NCBI GenBank assembly: GCA_951406725.2
Contig: OX597821.1
Coordinates: 43,524,001 to 43,588,000, forward strand
From: Octopus vulgaris
Lineage: Eukaryota
DNA: 64,000 nt
Direction of reading: 5' to 3'
Shown: in pieces, positions 1-62,285 of the stretch
Position numbering within the stretch: the stretch's first letter is position 1
Layout: the number at the start of each line of letters is the position of its first letter
Translations under genes and position numbers: made by a program
Notes under the pieces: generated by a model
Database searches by the model: none
What the model was told of the DNA's origin: nothing
Seen by the model: the letters and a program-made list of their open reading frames with translations, nothing else

Positions 1-3000
1 ACACACACAGAGTTTTTCAGTAATAATTCTAGACAGCTTTGATTGTATTTATCTTCATGTATATGAAAACATTCAGTATGCAAACCTCATTACTGATTAA
101 ATTATTAATGAAGAGCTGTTCTTTCCTTCATGGCTTATATATGCATTATGCTGTGTGGTACAGGACAATCACCCCACTCACATATATCGATAATTTCTTA
201 ACATCTTTATGGCTTTGAATGTTTAAAGAATCCTTGCAAAGTGAAATAATAACGAAATTCTTTACTGTTAGTGTATGTCTACCTAGTTATGACTGCAAAC
301 CACACCCTTTATGACTCAGCAACTTAAGAGGAGAGTAATTTCACATTCACCAAAAGAGAAACACAAACAAAACAAAGTGTTGTTTATTTAACATCTCACT
401 GGAAAGAGAAAACTGATAAATAATAAGAGACAAGTATTTAATTAGTGTCTAGATATTTTGATTTAGTATTTAATCCGCTATTTATTGCCTGTCATCATTT
501 ATATGTATATATAGTCTGACCACAGATTTTACTGTATCTGTGTGTGTGTGTGTGTGTGTGCATGCTGGCATGGGTTACACAAAACTTGTAGTATGATTTT
601 CTACTGCGAGGTGATCTTCTTTGCACCAACCCTCTTTTCAACAAAGTTATTCCCATTCAAACACATCCTCACACATAAAGGCTGATAAGGTAGCTGAGTG
701 ATGATTGCTAGAAAACATTAACTATACAACAGTTTTGCTTCTAGTGGTGTTAGTGAGAGCACATGGAAATAACACTCAACCTCAATTGTATGTATGTGTG
801 TGTATAGTAGAAAAACATTGAATGATTCTTCAATTTATGTTTGACTGTTTTTTTTGTAAAGATGTATATTAAAAAGAAAGAGTATGGGTGTTTATGTGCA
901 ACACATAGAAATATTTATCATTATAGGCACAAGCATGGATTAGCGGTTTGCTTTACAACCATATGGTTTAGGCAAGTGTCTTCAGCTATAGCCCCATGTT
1001 GACCCAAGCTTTGTGAGTGCATTAGGAAAATTGAAGCTAAAAGGAGCCCAGCGTGTGTGTGTGTGTGTGTGTAGTGTATGTATAAAATGTGTGTATTTAT
1101 ATGTGTGCATGTTTATACGTTGGCATCATTTGATGCAAGCAGTGTCATTCATTTCTAATCATCTGAAATCATGTCTAGTCTTGGAGAGCATATTTCCATA
1201 CTTGGAAATAGGTGTATCTGGCTATAGAAAAATCTGCCTCAACAAAATTCTGTCTGATCCATGCAAGCATGGAAAAGCAGATGTTAAAGCAATGATGATA
1301 ATATTACATAAGAACAGTTCAGTGTTGAGGGATTATTCACCACCTTTTGGTAGAGTATCATAGATATTAATATTCTGATTTTAACAAGGAAAAATAAGAG
1401 CGCATATATATGATGAGCCTTTTCAAGTTTCTGCCTACCAGTTTCACTTACAAAGCTGTTGTTGTAGCAGAACACAATTGCTAAAAGTTTTCATGCAGTG
1501 GGACCATACCCAAATGAATGTAGTTGCAGACACAGCCTTGCCTGTGCTTATGTGCATGTGTACACACACACACACACACACACACTAGTCCATTTCCACT
1601 GTCAGTAACAACTATTAAGAAATAATTTACTTGATATATTTATTTATCATTAACACACACACACACTCTCACTTTGTTACTCATAGAAGTCTGGATCTGG
1701 TAGGCAAAGAATACAATTAGACTTCATTAGCTGCGTCTTTGTACTTCTTACCAGTAACTAAATAAATCAAGGTTTGATGGGATACTTTTACAGCACTTTT
1801 TAATTTCCTTCATTAGTAGCATCAAACAGATAACATCTTCACATTTAGCTTCAAACATACTTCTTTAATTGATGTTCCATGTAAACTACCATTGAATAAG
1901 TGAATAAATTGTTTAACAAATTTCCCATATATTTAAATGGTATTTAATCTATTTTATTCTTGCCAATGACAATCAGCTTTGGATTAAGATTTGTAAAATT
2001 AATTTAATGATATTTTTTCTTTTTAGTTTCATTTTGATAGAAATAAATAGAATTTTAATGAAATCAAGTTATGTTCATAAGATCTAGAATATGCTGATTT
2101 AAATATTTTTAGAAATGTAGATTTAATTCATTATTTTTTTCAAAATGTCACTAAAAATCTCTTTCAGGATCTTGTAAAGTGGAAAACTTTAAAAGCTACT
2201 TAAAACAGATTTTCAAACTGTCTCTTCTATGCTAATTTCAAGTTGTTATCATGTGAATGTTGAATCCATTTTATATAAACTCTTGTTTATTTCAATTGTT
2301 TCCTTTTGTTAAATTTTAGATTATTTTCAAAATGCTAATTGTCTAATGGGATTTTAAGGAGGTGTGTGTCATTTTGTGATGAGAACTGTTTTTTGTTCTA
2401 AAAATAAATGAAAAAGGCAAAAAAATGAACCATCTGAAAATCCATGTAAAAAATTAGTGAAGGAATCGTTATTTCTATCAGTGTATTTTAAAAATCATTT
2501 ATATAATTAAAATAAGTTAACAATAGCAAATGAAAGGTCTGGCTGTTGTTTCTTATGGAATGTGTTGATGGTTTTTACTTGAAAACCCTTAACCTTTTTA
2601 TTTTTTTTACTGCTAATTTGGTATTCAAAATAGAATTGAATTTCAAGCTACTTGATGATCCTAAAATGTAATCTCTTTGACTCAACCATTTTGATACTGC
2701 CCTTCCTCACATCATGTCTTCTATGATTTAAAAAAAGTCATTTTATTGTAAGAGATTTTTATCTTTTGTCATGTTCTAAGATAATAACTAGAGTTATTTA
2801 CTAAATCCTTCCAAGTTATGAACAATTTAATATATCAGTTGAAGCACATAAAGCACATTTCATAAGAAATATTGTGGCAGTTTTTTTTTTATCTATCTTT
2901 GTCATTAGGAGTTACAATACAAATGGGTTAAAAAAACAAATTTAGTATGTTATAACATGGCTAACTTGTAGAGATTTGTTATTTCTACTAGCTAGCCATG

Positions 3001-3234
3001 TTGAAAGTGGCAGGAGGTGCCTTTCCATGTGTTGTGTGTATGTTCAGCTATTTTCATCAGTGATAGTGTGCTCCTGAGCAGAGGCTTTCTGCAACTTTGG
3101 TAGAGGGGGAAATACAAAATTTATGAATTCTTATCTTTGATCCATTGTGATCCATCATATTTTTACTCATAAGATACAGGTTTGCAACATGCCGCCTTAT
3201 TTATCTAACATTTACTTGTGGAAGAATGTGTATA

Positions 3235-4115
3235 CGAGGCCTGATCAATAAGTATCCAGATTGTTGCCATAGTAATGAAACTAAAGCACGCAGAAAGAAA
3301 CTGCTTTGCACAGATTGACCTTCAACTCTGCTGTGCATGTGCGTTAAGTTTTAACATTCTAGCTCATTTCCCCTGTTTACAGCAGTGCTTGGAAGGAAGG
3401 TGTGTAGTGTGTGATTGTCACATTGACCATAACAGAAAGTTGTCATGGTGATACTGGCTCAGAGGCCTACATAAATTTGCAAAAAGTGTATGGAGAGGAG
3501 TGTATGAGCTGCACATAAGTGTACAAATAGATTAGACATTTCCAAGATGGCCAAAAAATGTCGATATTGATGAACGTTCAAGAAGACCCACAACCAGCAG
3601 AACTGAGAAAAACTGCAGATGTGTGGGCAGCTGTGAGGGGAAATCGCTGGATCACCATCCGTGAGTTATCAGAGGATGTACAGATTAGTTACAGTACAGT
3701 TCATTATCACTGAAGGTTTGGATATGAGGCGTGTCTGACAAATTTGGGCCAAAACTGTTTTCAGCTGACCAAAACAACACTTGTGTTTCAGTTACACAAG
3801 ATCTTGATTGTGTTGAGAGCAATGAAAACTTTTTGAAAACTTTGCATAGGCCTCTGAGCAGGTATTGCTAAGTTTTGGCAAAATTTGATGCAGATTCTCT
3901 GCTCAACTTTCTCTGTCAATGTTATGATCACATGCTACACACCTTCCTTCCAAGCACATCTGTAAATAGCAGAAGTGAGTTAGAACAAGAAAACTTAGTG
4001 CACATGCACAGCAGAGGTTAAGGTCAATCTGTGCCAAGTGGCTTCATTCTCTGTGCTTTAGCTTCATTACTTCATTACTATAGCAACAGTCCAAATACTT
4101 ATTGATCAGACTATG
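3235..4115 (+). mobile_element. Non-autonomous mariner element with very long inverted arms (foldback derivative)
   Basis: TA|CGAGGCCTGATCAATAAGTAT ... ATACTTATTGATCAGACTATG|TA. The arms are about 250-280 bp. The interior is a decayed mariner HTH (EAYINLQKVYGEECMS...RHFQDG...DERSRRPTTSRT). Confidence 0.9.
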
Positions 4116-6292
4116 TATGTAAGATGAAAATGACGTTTTATGTGAGGAAATACTTTATCAAGACTGAATTTGAAAGCCTTTCTTGAGTAATTTTTGATTA
4201 TAAAGAAACATATACTTAAATATATTTTCTTCCTCCCACCTATTTTTTCTGTTTAAAACTATTGTTAATTGTAAATTCAAAGCAAATTTTAATTGCAGAA
4301 GCTTTTTCTTGTATAATTTAGCTCCGTACTTCATTAGTGATGAACCACATGTAGTTAGGTTTGTGACATTATCTTAATAGGTCTTCAGTTGAAAACTGAT
4401 TAGATGTTTTTCTGTCCCTCTGAAACATTTACAGTAATGTAGAAGTAATGTAATTGGATGAACAACAGCATTGGACTACTACTTCATAAGTTAAAAAGTT
4501 CAAGTCTTCTTTTAAGCAAAACATTCCCTTCTACATCTGTCAGGAACAGATATAGTATTATCTAGGAATATTTCTTGTCTGTGGCGGGATGTGTCCTGTA
4601 TGGGCTGAGTTCTATGAAAATGGATCTAAGTTACCAGCCCTTAAAACAACCTACTGGATGGAGACAAGGATTACAAGGTACTGACACTAAGGTACAGGAA
4701 AGGAATCTTTACTCAAGTATATACTATAAAATGTAAACATAAGTTGAATTGGTGGGTTACCACTAATGTGGTGATGAGTTCTAAATATGAACACAGCTTT
4801 GAATTAAATTTTCTCTGTCAGGCTATAAGTATGGATCACTATGTAGTTAATAAGTCACCTTCACAACTAAATAGTTTTGGGCTTGATCCTACTGCATGGC
4901 ACCTTTGAGGTGTGTTTTTTTACTTAAACTTGGATTGATTCATAATTTGAGAGTAGAATTTGGTAGGCAGAGACTAAAAATCTATAATGTATGTGTGGAC
5001 ATTTATAACAAAATGGATGGAACTGGTGTGAAAAAATAAATCTACCTGAACTGCATCAAGTGTCATCACTGGAAATGCAGAGAGCCAGTGATTTTCTTTA
5101 AAACAAAACAAAAAAAACAACCAGTTTTGTTTACACACATGGATTGGATAGTTATATAAAGTATGCTTCTCTGTTTCCCCTCAGTCATTTAGTTGGAAAA
5201 AAAATGCTCTTCATAAAAAATAAGCAATTTGTATTTTTTTGATTGTAGCAATTTAATATAACATAGGAAAAGTATGAAACTATATTCTTGTCCCTTCCTG
5301 CATTCCCTTCCTGTAAATCTGAAATGTCATGTTAATGTAGGAATTCAGTCTTAGAGTGTTAATGACCTGATTTGAAGGTGATTGTAATATGTTGATATAA
5401 TTTTCCTTCTAAAATCAAATATATCTTGATTTTTAATGATCTATAACTGCACTAGACAATATGGTACTTCCTTTGCTGTTTGTATCTCATTAAACTTGTT
5501 TCTCCTCTTAAAAGGCACACCTTTTAAAAATATTCTTGACAAATTCTTGATGTTACAGCTAATCTTTATTGGAATTAAAGTACAACTCTCTTAGCTAATT
5601 GTACTATAAAATTTTAAACTGTTAAATTCTTTCCTTAGAAAAAAATGCAGAAAACAAAGATAATTATTCCGTTCAAAATGAAAAAAGTTTTTTGATATTC
5701 AATTATTTATATTAGAAGTGTAAAAAGTGTCTGCAAATATTCTTTCTAAGGTGATGTGTGTGTAACCTCTAATCCTGTTTGCTAATTACTAAACACTCAG
5801 CTCATGACTTCTAATTTAATGGGAAGTACTAACTTGACTGGTTGTTTGCCAAAAATACTATTCACATCACACAACCTGTAATTTCTGAATTTCTCTTACA
5901 TTTAATTCTGTTGCAATTAAAATGTAGTTTTTCAGATTTAAAAGCCTAAAATCATTCTTTTAGTTGTTTTCAGTGCTTATAAAACCATTTATTAATATTT
6001 CTCTGCAACATACTGGTGCGTTTTGTTTGCTAGAGTGCTGTGCCTAAGTTCCCTTGGGTAGGAGAATATGTGTTCCAAGTGTGCTTAGCAGAACTTATAG
6101 TGTCTTTTCTGTTTTGTTTTGGCTCAGACTAGTTAACTACTAGACACATTATCTTAGTCTTTTGTTCTTGGTGCTACCTATCGTCCAAGGTTGCCATTAG
6201 TTTTGTTCTTTTGCACTGATCACTTTCTCTTGGACTATTCATGTAATTTTCTATGTATACTATTTGCATTTGAAAATCTCTTTGTATTTCTC

Positions 6293-6313
6293 ATGTGGAA
6301 TTATCAGCATGTG
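6293..6313 (+). CDS. Candidate coding end of an alternative first exon of the TSC22 gene (short isoform)
   Basis: Consensus donor TG|GTGAGT at 6314-6319. ATG 6309 gives ATG TG| (phase 2), in frame with exon 15122 (MCGSSTVAIDNKIEQAM...). Lies in a repeat-poor block. No transcript evidence. Confidence 0.4.
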
Positions 6314-6906
6314 GTGAGTTGTTTTTATTTTATATGTAATATATTGATGTAAAAATCTATTAAAAACAGTTGTCATGTGTTCACAGAAAGAAAAAAAAAA
6401 CATGCTCAATATTTATTGATTAACCAAAGTTTGTATTGATTCAATAAAAAGATATTTCTCCAAAAGACATTATTAGAAATCTAAATTTATTTCTAATGTC
6501 TCTGAAATTCTCAGGGTCAGTTCTATTTCTGCAACAAACCAACAGAAATAGCACCGCACTAGATAAAATGTTTTGTCACTGTGTTCTGAGTTCAAATCCA
6601 CCCATACATGCATTCCACTCCTTTATCATCAATAAATACCAATAGTACTCTGAGGTCGTCATTTCAGTCAACTGGTTTTTATCATCTTTGTAATGATTAA
6701 GGAACTTTGCATTTTACCTATTATTCCTGACATTAAATACCATTTGTCACATAATTAAACTCTACAGGTACAAGTATGGCTGCAAGGATAAGACACTCAT
6801 TTGACAAACCACATTTTGGGTTCAGTCCCACCATGTTACCTATTATAGCTTTAGGCTGACCAATGCCACATGAGTGAACCTAGTTGCTGAAAACATATAT
6901 GTGTAT

Positions 6907-6966
<60 letters not shown>

Positions 6967-7802
6967 ATTATTAATCAAACACTAAATCTAATGCTTGGTA
7001 TATGTAAGCACAATTGCTTGGGATATTTTTATGATAATCTATACATCCTTATTTAACAATTGATTTTCTTCTGATTGAGAAATTAAAGCATCTTTTATGT
7101 TAATGATGCTCTCAATATTCTGAATTAAAAAATGCCATTAAGTACAACTTTATCTTGTATCATTTTGATACCCATGCAATTATCTGTTGCCTCCTGCCAC
7201 AAATTGTGTTCTTGTGTCGATCTTAGGAATCAATTTAGAAAATGGAATTGGTATGGCATAAGATCTTATTGAGTAGCCAAATAATCAAATGGAAAAGATA
7301 ATGGTTTGATATATAGCTGTATATTTTCATTTATATTTAAAAAAAAAAGATATAAACATTTAGACAAGGTAGAAATATTTAATCACAGATTGACAAAAAA
7401 ACTGTATCCATTTAATTATTAATGAGATTTAATTACATGTATTACTTTGTTGTGTGGTTGTTTCTAGTTACTGTTTTGAAAACACATGACCCACATTTCA
7501 ATTAATAGAAATTAATGGTAAATAATAGGATTGTGTTCTTTTGCAAAATAATTTGTTCCTTCTTTGATGGTAATTAAAAACAGGGAATCTGGAAAATTTT
7601 AAAATGTAATTTAGAAATTCTCTTATCTATAGATACCATATATGCCAGAAGCATAGTTCACTGCCTCATTATATATATATATATATATATATATAGCATG
7701 TCTGTGGTTAAGGGGTTTTCTTCCCTATCAGATGATTTCAGGTTCAGCCTTCAACTATGGTCTAGTGAGTGGATTTAGTAAATGGAAGCTGAAAGAAGCC
7801 CA

Positions 7803-30715: not shown

Positions 30716-30888
30716 AGTTCCTGTCTACCAGGATTTTGCACACCAGCAGATTAGTCTTCACCAAGACTCCAATTCAGGAGTCTAGATAGCCTTGAGTTTG
30801 GGTTGAATGGCTCATTGAAAATACTTGGATGCTCTATCTTTTCAGGACCATTTTATGTACACATACCCACACACACATATATTTGTTT

Positions 30889-31077
30889 ACATGCGGTTAT
30901 ATATATGTTTGGTCATAGAGTGACCAATGGTTTTGCATCCATAAAGCACTTCGCTTTATGGACAATTCTTCAGACTCTTTAAGATTCAGGTCTGATGAGT
31001 TGTTCATAGAGCTAAGCACTTTATGGATGTGAGACTATTGGTCACTCTAGGACCAAGACATACATTTAACTGCATGT
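30889..31077. repeat. Imperfect foldback (about 87-bp arms) in which each arm holds a hammerhead-ribozyme-like motif
   Basis: Minus strand 30917-30978: AGAGT CTGAAGA [ATTGTCCATAAAGC GAAGT GCTTTATGGATGC] AAAA CCATTGG TC ACTCT. Plus strand 30989-31047: CTGATGA ... GAGA CTATTGG TC AC. Confidence 0.75.
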
Positions 31078-31473
31078 GAATACATTACTGCTTTATACTT
31101 TGGAGTGTACTTCTTTTTCAGATATATGATCCACTGACAAATTATATATATATATACACACACACACACACATTCACTAAACATTTTTCACACTTCCATG
31201 TAAAATGCACATTCTGATTTTGGGGCCTAAAACATCTTAAATCCGTTATAATACCATCTACTATATACTTTCTTCTTGGTTTCAACGATAAAATAAACGG
31301 TACATTTTATGGAGTTTTATGGTGTATCTGAGAGCTACAAAACACCTTTTGGTTATATAATCAAGTGTTTTGTACTTCTCAGATGAGAACCTTGCTACGT
31401 AAAGCTGAGATGTTCCATGATATTGGACATATTCAATATTTATCACTGAAATCAAATGTTCTGTGATATTAGA

Positions 31474-31844: not shown

Positions 31845-32985
31845 ATAATAATAATTATTCTTTCAAACTTTGGCAAAAAGCCAGCAAATTTAGTGGAAAA
31901 GTAAATAGGTTATATCATCCTCAGTACTTGACTGGTACTTCATTTTATTGATCCCAAAAGGATGAAAGGTAAAGTTGATTTTGGTGTGACTTGAATTAAG
32001 ATTGTAAAGAGCTGGAAGAAATGCTGCCAAGCATTTTGTCTGCCGGCTTGCTGCCTTAATTATGATAATAATAACAATACTTTCTACTAAAGGCACAAGG
32101 CCTGAAATTTTGGGAAAGGGCACTAGTTGATTAGATCAATGCTAGTGTTTCACTGGTACTTAATTTATCGACCTTGGAATTTGAACTCAGGACATAGTGA
32201 CAGGTGAAATACCGCTAAGCATTTCATCCAGTGTGCTAATGATTCTGCCAGCTCGCCACTTTCTTAATAATAATAATAAGGCCTGAAATTTTGTGGGGGG
32301 GGGGGGGAGAAAGTCAATCACATTGACCCCAGTACTTGATTGGTACTTAAATTACCAACCCCAAAAGGATGAAAGGCAAAGTCGATCTTGGCGGAATATG
32401 AACTCGGATTGTAAAGACGGACAAATTGCTGCTAAGCATTTTGCCCGGCATGCTAACAATTCTGCTAGCTTGCCACCTTAGATAATAATAATAAAAATTC
32501 TTTCAAATTTTGGTACAAGGTCAGTAATTTCAGGAAAGGATAAGTTTGTTGCATCAACCCTGGTACTTATTTCATTGATCCTGAAAGGATGAAAGGCAAA
32601 GTTGAGCATGACACATCTTGAATTCAGAACGTGAAGACAGACAAAATGCTACTAAGCATTTCACTCTGCATGCAAAAAATTCGGTCAGTTTGCTGTCTTA
32701 ATGTTACATCAAAGCTCACAGTGAGAATTGAACTCGCAATCCCTGGTTTACAAGACCAGTGCTCTAACCTCTCAGTTATGGAGGCTTAAAATAATAACAA
32801 TTATAATTCTTTATTGTTAAGGCACAAGGCCAACAATTTTGAGGGGAAAATTGAAATTTGATAACACCAACCCCGAAGTCAACATTAGTGGAATTTGAAC
32901 TAAAAACATAATGAATCAGAAGAAATGCCACTAAGCATTTTGCCTTATGTGGTAATAATTTTGCGAGCATGCTGCATTATTAATA
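31845..32985 (-). mobile_element. Cluster of about five co-oriented tRNA-SINE copies (Meta/MESC-like domain) separated by (TAA)n
   Basis: Repeated CCAAAAGGATGAAAGGCAAAGTCGA and CTAAGCATTT..CC units, homologous to 50363-50588. Further copies lie near 6540-6660, 14370-14570, 28520-28710 and 34735-34940. The domain name is assigned from memory of the consensus. Confidence 0.8.
32713..32785 (-). pseudogene. tRNA-Thr(TGT) pseudogene
   Basis: Minus strand GCCTCCATAACTGAGAGGTTAGAGCACTGGTCTTGTAAACCAGGGATTGCGAGTTCAATTCTCACTGTGAGCT. The anticodon arm CTGGT-CTTGTAA-ACCAG is intact, but the acceptor and D stems carry mismatches and only TTT follows. Confidence 0.82.
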
Positions 32986-40649: not shown

Positions 40650-41181
40650 AGTTTTTAGAGTTAGTACTTTCAATGTAGGTACACTAAAAGGTAAGTCTAG
40701 TGAGTTGTAGACATGCTTGATCAGAGACATGTTGATGTATGCTGCATACAAGAGGTAAGGTGGAGAGGATCTTCAGCCAGGGTTCTCACAGGCAAGGCAC
40801 ATAGGAATAAAATTTTCTGCGAAGGTAACAGCGAGGGTGTAGGCATACTCCTTGCAGAGAAATGGGTGGATAAGGTCATAGATGTAGTCAGAATATGTGA
40901 CAGAGTGCTTAAGCTCAGGCTAGTCCTGCAGAATAGTATAGCTACAATTATCTCTGCCTACGCCCCACAAGCTGGCCTACCAAACGACCAGAAGGACCAC
41001 TTTGATAATACCCTTCTACAGGCTACCTCAAAGAGAGGTGGCAATGACCTCACCTTTGTGGCTGGAGATTTTAATGGGCATGTTGGATGGCAATACTGTA
41101 TCTTACATGGTGGTCATGGGGGCCATGGAATTGGTTCCTGAAACAAAGAGGGAACTAGGCAACTGAAGTTCTGTGATGCAT
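40650..41181 (+). mobile_element. RTE-clade LINE apurinic-like endonuclease fragment
   Basis: FRVSTFNVGTLKGKSSEL*..VDVCCIQEVRWRG...GVGILL...IISAYAPQAG...VAGDFNGHVG...GHGIGS*NKEG..LKFC. Contains in-frame stops and is truncated at a mariner TIR-like sequence near 41187. Confidence 0.9.
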
Positions 41182-43028: not shown

Positions 43029-43213
43029 ATTGATTGATTCTAGTTTCAGCTCACGAGCTGTGGCCATGCTGGGGCACCACCATTTAAACATTGTGCTATG
43101 CTTACTGCACCTAGGTTTCCCAAGCGGTCACCCATCTAAGTACTGACTAGGCTCGACGTTGCTTAACTCCGGTGATCAGACGAGAACTGGTGCTTTCAAC
43201 GTGTATGGCCGTA
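43029..43213 (-). mobile_element. 5S rRNA-derived sequence fused to a SINE-type 3' tail (candidate SINE3)
   Basis: 43100-43213 on minus is a near-complete 5S rRNA (TACGGCCATAC.ACGTTGAAAGCACC...GAGTTAAGCAACGTCGAGCC..AGTACTTAGATGGGTGACCGCTTGGGAA). It is followed by GGTGCCCCAGCATGGCCACAGCTCGTGAGCTGAAAC and (AATC)n instead of an oligo-T terminator. Confidence 0.8.
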
Positions 43214-43244
43214 TATGTATATATATATATATATATATACATAT

Positions 43245-45660: not shown

Positions 45661-46670
45661 CATTATTATTATTATTATGTATGTATAATAATAATAATAA
45701 TAATAGTAATAAAAAAATGTATATAGTTATTTACTTCCATTTGTTTATTTATCTGTGTATTTTATTTTATTATGTTTTCAGTTTTGTTTATATTGTAACC
45801 AGTTTATGGGGATCTTCTTCTGTCATATGCTGTGGTGTGTGCTAGTGTTCCATTCCAGTTTGCTATTCAGGCTAGGTTTATCTTCTATTATGTGTGTAGC
45901 TTCCGTAATTTGTTTGATTGTTGCGTCTGTTCTATGTGTGGACAAGATTTTAACTTCTATGTTGTTGATTGAGACCCTGTGTTCCTGCTCGGCGTGTTGG
46001 TACAGAATCGATGAGCTCTTTCCTTCTTTAAGTTCTCTCCAATATTCATTTACCCACTCTCCTATGCTCCATGCTGTTTCCCCTACGTATATCGTTGTCT
46101 TGTTACTGCATCGTCCCTCTATACATCTTATACTATAGACTACATTTTTGGCTTTACAGTTTGTTTGTGGGCTCAATCTACACACAGTACAGTTCCTATC
46201 CGTACAAGGGTTCTATTAAAAGAGTAGGTTCTACTGATTATGGATTTGATAGGGTTGCCTGGCCTTTCAACAACCTTAATCCTTAGCTTAAGTTTGTCTA
46301 GGGTCCTTCTAAAGCGGTACGCCAGTTCACCTCTAGTGGTGGTGTCGACGAACATGACACTCTGGTATTTGTGGCTATCATACCAAGAGTTGGCCTTCCC
46401 TATTTTCTTCTTTGTCCTTTCAATAGTGTTCCATGACTTGCTCCTATAGAGTGGGCAAATCCCATTCCTATCATTGCATAAGATAGTATCAAATTTTTTC
46501 ATGGCTCCTTTGTGTACTCTGATCCTTTCTTTATGGCTGTAACCTGAGAACTGCATGCGGTGAACGAAATGTTGTATGTGTCTCTTTAACTCTGTAGGTT
46601 CGCACTTGCAGGACACATTTCACATTATTCTGACGAGGTCTGCCATCAAAATATTGAATTTGGCATTGTC
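45200..46670 (-). mobile_element. Penelope-like element 3' part: RT thumb/linker, GIY-YIG endonuclease and downstream pLTR-like region with a hammerhead motif
   Basis: ORF 45823-46185 (CKAKNVVYSIRC...IYVGETAWSIGEW..EY..ELK......LYQHAEQEH...EATHI..KPSLNSKLEW) is a PLE GIY-YIG. ORF 46173-46616 (RMQFSGYS...PLYRSKSW) is frameshifted upstream. A co-oriented HHR-like motif lies at 45344-45387. Confidence 0.9.
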
Positions 46671-50100: not shown

Positions 50101-50362
50101 TCAATGTGGAACTAACACATCAACTCTTACCAGCCTCTAGCGAAACTCTTCAACAACTTCTGCCAACTTGATGCCTTTTCATAGGACATGATAGGTATTT
50201 TACTGGTGGTACTTTGGCTGCCAAGCATGCAACCGCTACCAGCTTTCACCAATTTCTCAATGTCCCCGTGCATGCAACAGGTTGTACTGAGTTACATGTT
50301 ACCAGTAGTGCCCAAGAGTGACCTGACCTTGTGTGACAGGTTGTACTGGGTTACAATTTACC

Positions 50363-50588
50363 TATTTCTTTATTACCCACAAGGGGCTAAACACAGAGGG
50401 GACAAACAAGGACAGACATAGGTATTAAGTCGATTACATCGACCCCAGTGCGTAACTGGTACTTAATTTATCGACCCCGAAAGGATGAAAGGCAAAGTCG
50501 ACCTCGGCGGAATTCGAACTCACAACGTAACGCAGATGAAATACCGCTAAGCATTTCGCCTGGCGTGCTAACGTTTCTGCAAGCTCGC
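50363..50588 (-). mobile_element. Young tRNA-SINE (Meta/MESC-like domain) with 17-bp TSD
   Basis: TSD CTGGGTTACAATTTACC at 50346-50362 and 50589-50605. B box GAGTTCGAATTCC and domain GCCTTTCATCCTTTCGGGGTCGATAAATTAAGTACCAG. Confidence 0.9.
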
Positions 50589-59442: not shown

Positions 59443-60041
59443 AGGCGGTGAGCTGGCAGAAACATTAGCATGCTGGGCGAAATGCTTAGCGGTATTTCGT
59501 CTGCCGTTACATTCTGGGTTCAAATTCTGCTGAGGTTGACTTTGCCTTTCATCCTTTCGAGGTTGATAAATTAAGTACTAGTTATGCACTGGGGTCGATG
59601 TAATCGACTTAATCCCCTTGTCTGTCCTTGTTTGTCCCCTCTGTGTTTAGCCCCTTGTGGGTAATAAAGAAATAGGTATTTTGTCTGCCGTTACGTTCTG
59701 GGTTCAAATTATGCTGAGGTCGACTTTGCCTTTCATCCTTTCGGGGTCGATAAATTAAGTACCAGTTATGCAATGGGGTCGATGTAATCGACTTAATCCC
59801 CTTGTCTGTCCTTGTTTGTCCCCTCTGTGTTTAGCCCCTTGTGGGTAGTAAAGAAATAGGTATTTTGTCTGCCGTTACATTCTGAGTTCAAATTCTGCAG
59901 AGGTCGACTTTGCCTTTTATCCTCTCGGGGTCGATAAATTAAGTACCAGTTATGCACTGGGGTCTATGTAATTGGCTTAACCTCTTTGTCTGTCCTTGTT
60001 TGTCCCCTCTATGTTTAGCCCCTTGTGGGAAATAAAGAAAT
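59443..60041 (+). mobile_element. Meta/MESC-like tRNA SINE with its body triplicated in tandem (184-bp period)
   Basis: Units start at 59491, 59675 and 59859. There is one A-box head, and the TSD AAGAAATACCT lies at 59430-59440 and 60042-60052. Confidence 0.9.
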
Positions 60042-60637
60042 AAGAAATACCTCCCATATTTTAGACAGACATTGGTGTGAATGATAGTGAAGTTAGGCAG
60101 GTGATAGTGGTGTCTTTATGTAGATAGTGTTTTATTGTTATTTGTCTTAGTTACTATTACAGTTTGGTCCAGTATACATTGCGCATTTTACTACTGAAAT
60201 GTTTATCAAGAATGGTGAATATGAGTTTATTTTTGTTGCACCCTGTACTTTTTAGTTCTTTTTCTCTTTTCCTTCTTCTACCTCTTCTTTATTGTCTGTC
60301 TTTTTTCCTTTCCTCCTCCCCATTTACATCACTTCCTCCTCTCTTCCTAATACAAACCGCTACCATAAAGAAGAAGAAGCAATTTTTCTCATAAAGCTGA
60401 CTCCACCAGTTTTAATTCCCAGTTGCAGCCATTTCACTTTTTATTTATTTTAGTTTTATTTTAGTATTATTTTATTATTTTTTCACACTGATAGTAGATG
60501 TGAGACAAGCTTGTTGAGGCTTCACGCACTTTCATTTTTCCTCACAAAAAAATATGAAGTCATGTGACTGTAGTATCACCATCATCATCATCGTAATCAC
60601 CACCACCACCACCACAACCACCACCACCACCACCACT

Positions 60638-61991: not shown

Positions 61992-62064
61992 TTTATGTAT
62001 GTATGTATATATGCATGCATATATATATATGTATGTATAGATAAAGTTAGATAAGGCCAGCTTA

Positions 62065-62127
62065 TGGGATTTCCCTGGGTTTCACATCCATAAAGTGCTT
62101 AGCTTTACAGTATATTGTCAGATCCCA
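62065..62127 (-). ncRNA. Degenerate minimal hammerhead-ribozyme motif
   Basis: TGGGAT CTGACAA [TATACTGTAAAG CTAAGCA CTTTATGGATGT] GAAA CCCAGGG AA ATCCCA. Stem II is homologous to the 30917-31047 copies. Confidence 0.6.
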
Positions 62128-62285
62128 AACCTGCTGGCTCATGGCTTCTCTAGCAAATGACCTTTCTAGAAAATGGAGGAGGGAAAGACTTTATTACTAT
62201 GTCAATAACAGGGGATTGTTTCCATTTGGCTGAGAATCATAAATGACGCTGTTACCATGTGGGTCCCAGTAGGCCAGCAGGGATT

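What the first reader, a model, noticed from the sequence alone, without database searches (positions are those of the whole stretch)
30889..31077. Two hammerhead motifs back-to-back in an inverted repeat
Seen: each arm folds as a type I minimal hammerhead, with stem I AGAGT/ACTCT, CUGANGA, an 11-bp stem II, a GAAA-like box, short stem III CCA-T-TGG and a UC cleavage site. One motif is on each strand, pointing outward from a 14-nt spacer. Each has a different single GAAA defect (AAAA, GAGA), so the consensus has an intact core. Established: Penelope-like elements and retrozymes carry minimal hammerheads and often have inverted pLTRs. Inference: this is a non-coding PLE-mobilised family.
Basis: partly seen in the sequence, partly recalled or inferred. 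Interest (0 to 1): 0.72.

Follow-up and report, generated by a model that had tools for sequence, protein, structure and literature searches.

The report
Decayed Penelope-like insertion with inverted hammerheads
Two damaged copies of a self-cutting RNA motif point away from each other here, likely because they are the tail ends of an abundant Penelope-like jumping-gene family of an octopus, pasted in as an inverted pair, which is a known insertion pattern and not a new device.

Summary
The two hammerhead-like motifs are real. They are the only hits of a minimal-hammerhead descriptor in 64 kb, against 0 in 12 shuffles. They belong to an abundant repeat family: 950, 874 and 334 contigs from three organisms align here, and the family majority restores GAAA. 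The back-to-back layout is not the family unit. In the deepest run only this locus spans the centre, the family continues upstream with other sequence, and other loci join the two arms at different points. The element extends past the reported coordinates: the right arm carries about 60 extra family bases (a 'tail'), and both ends abut TA repeats. An inverted 5'-truncated copy, a one-sided tail, a (TA)n target and a hammerhead near the 3' end are published marks of Penelope-like element (PLE) insertions. The 4-bp palindromic stem III most resembles the Hydra clade. Both arms carry further defects, and a read-through RNA is predicted to fold into one long hairpin that abolishes both ribozyme folds, so this copy is likely dead. 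Whether the family is non-coding or the 3' end of a coding PLE could not be tested. Verdict: new member of a known kind.

The parts
30877..30881 (.). TA-repeat remnant (after a CA repeat) at the left end; likely one half of the target site
   Evidence: sequence; exact left boundary 30882-30888 unresolved because 30855-30889 was skipped as repeat
30882..30978 (-). Left arm: 5'-truncated 3' end of the element, short terminus (no tail)
   Evidence: family depth rises from 42 to 8429-86178 in run X1 from bin 30888; 82% identical to right arm
30917..30978 (-). Left minimal type I hammerhead; defects G12>A (30934, CpG site) and G10.1>A (30966); predicted cut after C 30922
   Evidence: family G at 30934 in 56% of depth in X1
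30979..30988 (.). Locus-specific inversion junction / filler; not family sequence
   Evidence: at 30976-30986 only the locus's own contig is laid in X1 (depth 58.1); loose ends show other upstream sequence in the family
30989..31048 (+). Right minimal type I hammerhead; defects A14>G (31033), C11.1>U (31030), stem III C>U (31036), stem I cut to 3 bp; predicted cut after C 31043
   Evidence: family A at 31033 in 96-100% of depth in all four runs
30989..31081 (+). Right arm, part shared with the left arm
31082..31141 (+). One-sided 3' extension ('tail', about 60 nt): family sequence present only on the right arm
   Evidence: depth 4177-6057 in X1, 2079-3533 in X14, 224-410 in X12 over 31077-31139, against single-copy flanks of 42-60, 3-18 and 3-6
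31143..31155 (.). (TA)n followed by a CA repeat; likely the other half of the target site
   Evidence: sequence
62040..62126 (-). Related solo hammerhead copy: shared stem II 3' strand, intact GAAA, damaged CUGA box and cleavage triplet, compensatory changes in stems I and III; ends at a TA-rich repeat
   Evidence: nhmmer E=0.00056; sequence; alignment A1

Best explanation
This is likely an old, dead insertion of an endonuclease-bearing Penelope-like retroelement (PLE) family, in which two very short 5'-truncated copies of the element's hammerhead-bearing 3' end were likely laid down head-to-head in a (TA)n microsatellite. Shown: two hammerhead motifs on opposite strands; a high-copy family in three organisms; an intact CUGANGA/GAAA core in the family majority; a centre unique to this locus; a 60-nt family extension on one arm only; TA repeats at both ends. 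Inferred from published PLE biology: a GIY-YIG/RT protein nicked the TA repeat and reverse-transcribed the element RNA from two start sites (one giving the short end, one the tail). Either both strands were primed or the first cDNA folded back; synthesis stopped just past the hammerhead and the two 5' ends were joined with filler. Predicted: in the parent element the hammerhead would cleave as a dimer through the self-complementary stem III, while at this locus a read-through RNA would fold into one long hairpin and neither damaged motif would cut. The donor is probably of, or served by, the Hydra clade.
For:: 950/874/334 contigs laid from organisms A/F/E; peak summed depth about 1,500-2,000 times the flank in X1 (not a copy number). 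GAAA restored at 31033 (7464 of 7786 depth) and 30934 (46279 of 82394). Centre covered by one contig in X1. Loose ends behind 30959 (24 contigs, X1) and 30978 (8 contigs, X12) show the family running on upstream. 10 of the 15 joints shown (30 not shown) link left to right arm, each at a different pair of positions; X14 record 18 spans both arms with another centre. Tail is family sequence. Literature: inverted 5'-truncated copy and one-sided 30-40 bp tail (PMC8557442 passages); opposite-strand pairs of minimal hammerheads in Schistosoma (PMC4209133); two RT start sites, both strands cut and extended, AT-rich targets (PMC11167929). 16 of 25 Hydra-clade families list a 4-bp stem III with 1-nt loop, the octopus Hydra-1_oBim has acca-a-tggt, 26 of 27 target (TA)n, and Penelope-13_HM has an inverted 5'-truncated copy with a hammerhead on each strand (supplement). 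Folding: stem III has no monomer hairpin, self-duplex -8.9 kcal/mol; stem II pair probability 0.84-1.0 in isolated arms, 0.0 in the whole transcript. Decay at the CpG spanning C11.1-G12.
Against: No RT or GIY-YIG sequence could be linked to this family; the only PLE coding remnant in the window (46.7-45.8 kb) carries a different hammerhead. The tail is about 60 nt, longer than the published 30-40 bp. G12 is only a narrow majority (51-56% of depth in three DNA-type runs), although selection of contigs by likeness to this copy favours its own letter. Many joints have short sides (22-33 letters) or unknown letters between them, and near-perfect palindromic joints may be assembly or library artefacts. 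No empty site was seen, so boundaries and target are inferred. (TA)n targeting is shared with Naiads and other PLEs, so the clade call rests on stem III alone. Four family motifs were absent from the Craig et al. supplement consensus files, so it is not Hydra-1_oBim itself.
Confidence: 0.8

Rival explanations
1. The arms come from a dedicated short non-autonomous element (retrozyme- or SINE-like, a few hundred bases, no ORF) that borrows PLE proteins. The insertion mechanism is the same as in the best explanation; only the donor differs, so the two are partly compatible.
For: High abundance with depth falling steeply 5' of the hammerhead; no ORF seen attached; the 62-kb relative sits in a ~245-nt segment between two TA repeats; PLE-derived non-autonomous retrozymes are published (bioRxiv 10.64898/2026.07.22.740005).
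Against: The depth drop is confounded by the 80% likeness cut, by stem II subfamilies and by collapsed contigs; loose ends run on for median 75-169 nt; most hammerheads of ordinary PLEs also occur as truncated singles; no head-to-tail tandem at this locus.
Confidence: 0.3
2. The palindrome itself is the mobile unit (MITE-like or fold-back DNA element, or a fixed double-ribozyme cassette).
For: Long inverted repeat of MITE size; TA flanks.
Against: Centre private to the locus, variable junctions, asymmetric ends and family sequence continuing upstream; a single transcript holds only one sense hammerhead and is predicted to pair it with the antisense arm.
Confidence: 0.05
3. The dead insertion has been kept by the host as a long RNA hairpin (small-RNA precursor or A-to-I editing substrate).
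For: Plus-strand fold -116 kcal/mol against -95.5 on the minus strand; a locus-specific contig (30767-30940, 2 differences, depth 2.7) in run X9, which is only guessed to be RNA.
Against: Wobble-compatible mismatches 9 against 3 are not significant (p=0.15) and similar skews occur in 10 control repeat pairs; miRNA family hits are far below gathering scores; no orthologue of the element was recovered from organisms E or F.
Confidence: 0.06

Closest known systems
Hydra-clade PLEs, e.g. Hydra-1_oBim and Penelope-13_HM (Craig et al. 2021, PMC8557442)
   Same: Hammerhead within about 30-150 nt of the 3' end; 4-bp palindromic stem III with 1-nt loop (acca-a-tggt in Hydra-1_oBim, ACCA-U-UGGU here); (TA)n target; inverted 5'-truncated copy giving a hammerhead on each strand.
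   Different: Stems I and II and the flanks differ from Hydra-1_oBim; stem II is longer (10-11 bp against 3-7); no ORF linked, so clade-defining protein motifs are untested.
[quoted passage not shown]
   Same: Type I topology, short stem I, long stem II, an extra unpaired base at the 5' end of stem II, palindromic stem III, thousands of variable solo copies, opposite-strand pairs.
   Different: Pair here is closer (18 nt between cores; published pairs about 100-700 bp); stem III region is longer than the 1-2 bp seen in the supplement rows I read; extra base sits after, not before, the G that faces C11.1.
Poseidon PAc of Anolis (Frangieh et al. 2024, PMC11167929)
   Same: Two 3' ends (tail), AT-rich target, hammerhead upstream of the 3' ends.
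   Different: PAc hammerhead overlaps the ORF start; here the frame from the ATG in stem II closes after 18 codons or fewer; tail about 60 nt.
Animal non-LTR retrozymes (PMC7229834; bioRxiv 10.64898/2026.07.22.740005)
   Same: Type I hammerhead in a repeated, apparently non-coding sequence, linked to PLEs.
   Different: Retrozymes are head-to-tail tandems with same-strand hammerheads; this locus is an inverted pair of truncated ends.

Membership tests
Minimal type I hammerhead (min-HHR) | CUGANGA box | tested here: met
   Both arms intact; loose-end consensus of the family also has it
Minimal type I hammerhead (min-HHR) | GAAA box | tested here: met
   Not met in either arm; met in the family majority: 31033 96-100% of depth, 30934 51-56% in three runs and 92% in X9; intact in the 62-kb copy
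Minimal type I hammerhead (min-HHR) | Stems I, II, palindromic III and a UH cleavage site, with covariation | tested here: met
   read by eye, the 62-kb copy has double changes at 3 of 5 stem I pairs and 1 stem III pair (three sequences only)
Minimal type I hammerhead (min-HHR) | Self-cleavage as dimer | not testable with these tools
   Only folding predictions
Rfam hammerhead families (Hammerhead_1 etc.) | Score at gathering threshold | tested here: not met
   No hammerhead hit; only the damaged genomic copies were scored, not a family consensus
EN+ PLE insertion | 5' truncation with fixed 3' ends | tested here: met
   Family continues upstream of both arms; depth ends sharply at about 30888 and 31139
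EN+ PLE insertion | Inverted 5'-truncated copy adjacent to the 5' end, junction varying between loci | tested here: met
   Locus-private centre; 10 different left-right joints among 15 shown; X14 record 18; some joints may be artefacts
EN+ PLE insertion | Tail on one end only | tested here: met
   31082-31141 is family sequence on the right arm only; longer than the published 30-40 bp
EN+ PLE insertion | Microsatellite or AT-rich target | tested here: met
   TA repeats at both ends; loose-end consensuses of other copies also end in TA runs; no empty site seen
EN+ PLE insertion | RT plus GIY-YIG ORF belonging to the same family | not testable with these tools
   No genome held; collection scans empty
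Hydra clade | DKT motif, CxCX5C linker, no CCHH, RT phylogeny | not testable with these tools
   No ORF linked
Hydra clade | Hammerhead near 3' end with 4-bp stem III; (TA)n target (typical, not exclusive) | tested here: met
Non-LTR retrozyme | Head-to-tail tandem monomers with same-strand hammerheads | tested here: not met
   Inverted pair at this locus; no goes-back joint among 15 shown of 45; not excluded elsewhere in the genome
Non-LTR retrozyme | Circular RNA intermediate | not testable with these tools
   Only contigs were available
MITE / fixed palindromic element | Same termini and same interior in all copies | tested here: not met
   Centre private, ends asymmetric

The most novel reading that the evidence does not exclude
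An undescribed ORF-less octopus element of about a thousand or more copies, carried by Hydra-clade PLE proteins, that inserts as inverted pairs with one short-ended and one tailed arm. Its hammerhead hairpin would itself trigger the fold-back (several joints centre on stem II), and a conserved hairpin over the cleavage site would act as an off-switch. It would give a genome-scale natural test of the two-start model of PLE reverse transcription and of what the hammerhead does.
Probability: 0.2. Interest if true: 0.45.

Novelty: new member of a known kind. Interest (0 to 1): 0.2.

Why it matters
Modestly. It adds an octopus PLE-type repeat family with an unusually long stem II and shows that opposite-strand hammerhead pairs here are insertion scars, not designed double ribozymes. 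The family's many short inverted insertions could serve as data on an open point: how PLEs make inverted copies and tails, and whether the hammerhead hairpin sets the inversion point.

Tried and rejected
Own-genome search: no genome is held, so no assembly-based consensus or copy count. Rfam: no hammerhead hit; miRNA hits far below thresholds. Exact motif scans of metagenome, prokaryote and viral collections: 0 loci each. Upstream family motif not found elsewhere in the window. Pfam did not recognise the PLE remnant at 46 kb; a protein search did. Host-gene context was left undetermined. No empty site or orthologue of the element in organisms E or F: only flank pieces were laid, which proves nothing. 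Strand bias of wobble pairs not significant. Fixed palindrome, tandem retrozyme and link to the 46-kb PLE were considered and rejected (above). Earlier-findings search: nothing by sequence or full word set; 8 shown of 358 by two words were from other genomes and did not bear on this locus. Lunse et al. (dimer cleavage) was not available; I saw only a review's passage on it.

Full report
Setting. The window is AT-rich, microsatellite-rich eukaryotic DNA; no whole genome is held. A PLE remnant in the window is 87% and 81% identical to a protein that its source labels Octopus vulgaris, so the host is inferred to be an octopus.

Observation. 30886-31080 is an inverted repeat: 74 of 90 aligned columns are identical. 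Each arm carries a type I hammerhead layout pointing outward. A descriptor allowing one core mismatch finds exactly these two sites on both strands of 64 kb and none in 12 shuffled windows; I wrote the descriptor after seeing the arms, so this tests chance and not sensitivity. It missed the 62-kb and 45-kb motifs even at two mismatches. Rfam gave no hammerhead hit.

Family. I laid 4 of the 24 listed runs on 30720-31320 at 80% likeness. 950, 874, 334 and 25 contigs were laid from X1 (organism A, about 80% read), X14 (F), X12 (E) and X9 (A, RNA guessed). Summed depth in X1 rises from 42-58 in the flanks to 86,178 over the left arm and stays at 3,000-7,400 over 31014-31139. The tool warns that this is no copy number; it does show a high-copy family in three organisms. 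Majority letters repair both GAAA boxes: A at 31033 in 96-100% of depth, and G12 at 30934 in 56%, 52%, 53% and 92%. The weak majority at G12 has a plain cause: C11.1-G12 is a CpG, and both decay products are common (30934, 30935). That fits neutral decay of DNA copies. A related copy at 62126-62040 shares the stem II 3' strand and has an intact GAAA, with double changes at three stem I pairs and one stem III pair, read by eye.

The pair is not the unit. At 30976-30986 only the locus's own contig is laid in X1. Loose ends show that family members continue upstream of stem I with a different sequence (24 contigs behind 30959 in X1; 8 behind 30978 in X12). Of 15 joints shown (30 not shown), 10 link left-arm to right-arm sequence, each at a different pair of positions; the other 5 change strand, as a single family copy would. 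X14 record 18 spans both arms with another centre. Caveat: sides are short (22-33 letters), letters between are often unknown, and palindromic joints near stem II could be artefacts. The right arm continues for about 60 nt of family sequence (31082-31141) that the left arm lacks, and both ends meet TA repeats.

Mechanism. These are the published marks of PLE insertion. Craig et al. describe 5' truncation, an inverted 5'-truncated copy and a one-sided 30-40 bp tail (PMC8557442; passages, section 11 and supplement parts and searches read). Cervera and De la Pena report thousands of solo minimal hammerheads, pairs on opposite strands 100-700 bp apart, and low dimer-dependent cleavage (PMC4209133; parts 1-2 of 4 and a supplement search, one file not searchable). 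Frangieh et al. show a purified PLE protein cutting and extending both strands of AT-rich DNA from two internal RT start sites that define the tail, with a protein-assisted hammerhead that is dispensable for insertion in vitro (PMC11167929; parts 1-2 of 4). I infer one event: nick in (TA)n, reverse transcription from the distal start (tailed arm) and the proximal start (short arm) or fold-back copying, early termination just past the hammerhead, and joining with filler. The 18% arm divergence implies an old insertion if both arms came from one template.

Ribozyme function is predicted only. The stem III strand forms no hairpin alone but self-pairs at -8.9 kcal/mol (left) and -4.3 (right), as expected for a dimer-type hammerhead. 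In each arm a 6-7 bp hairpin over the cleavage site beats the hammerhead fold (left -22.7 against -17.8; right -20.8 against -4.7 kcal/mol); the family majority at 31050 keeps this hairpin. In a read-through transcript of either strand, stem II pairing falls from 0.84-1.0 to 0.0 because the arms pair with each other (-116 and -95.5 kcal/mol). This locus is therefore unlikely to self-cleave.

Nearest kin. In Craig et al.'s table, 16 of 25 Hydra-clade families have a 4-bp stem III with a 1-nt loop, the octopus Hydra-1_oBim has acca-a-tggt, and 26 of 27 families prefer (TA)n; Penelope-13_HM has an inverted copy with a hammerhead on each strand. The present family is not Hydra-1_oBim: other stems differ and my family motifs were not found in that supplement, where line breaks could hide a match. 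Clade membership needs the ORF and was not testable. It is not a tandem retrozyme at this locus (PMC7229834 passages; bioRxiv 10.64898/2026.07.22.740005 part 1 and passages, supplements closed). PLEs make up 6.83% of the O. vulgaris genome in 190 families (PMC13282606 passages and supplement), so the family may already be in a repeat library that I could not see. Seven literature searches showed no description of this family's hammerhead. I also saw passages of PMC8969392, PMC6962438 and PMC6765202.

Verdict. Real motifs, real family, known kind of insertion; open only on whether the donor is coding. Interest 0.2.

Noticed in passing
window 46694-45178 (-): 5'-truncated PLE: RT thumb, cysteine linker and GIY-YIG, frameshifted near 46206 (87%/81% to P0001). 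Its 3' region has a different minimal hammerhead at 45388-45344 (one core change) and ends at (TA)n. The thumb and linker look like the Nematis clade (recalled, not tested).
   Followed up: partly
window 62131-62285: About 155 nt between a TA repeat and the solo hammerhead, bounded by a 9-bp inverted repeat; no other copy in the window. Either the 5' part of a short hammerhead element or a separate insertion.
   Followed up: partly
window 3271-4071: Element with 157-nt inverted arms (82%) around a 487-nt interior, which looks like a decayed Tc1/mariner-type DNA transposon (by eye).
   Followed up: no
window 43099-43216 (-) and 32713-32785 (-): Rfam 5S rRNA hit (85 bits) and tRNA hit (42 bits); probably pseudogenes or SINE heads.
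   Followed up: no
window 59491-60042: Three head-to-tail copies of a 184-nt unit that matches a dispersed tRNA-like repeat family (also 50337-50532, 32176-32699).
   Followed up: no
window 30882, 31141, 45178: All three PLE-type ends read ACAAA just before the TA run, as does the published Hydra-1_oBim end; may be a terminal signature or chance in AT-rich DNA.
   Followed up: no
window 1-24000: T>A and G>C skew on the + strand after removing microsatellites, a weak hint of a long transcription unit.
   Followed up: partly
window 40704-41138 (+): AP-endonuclease domain of a LINE (Pfam PF03372, E=1.8e-6).
   Followed up: no
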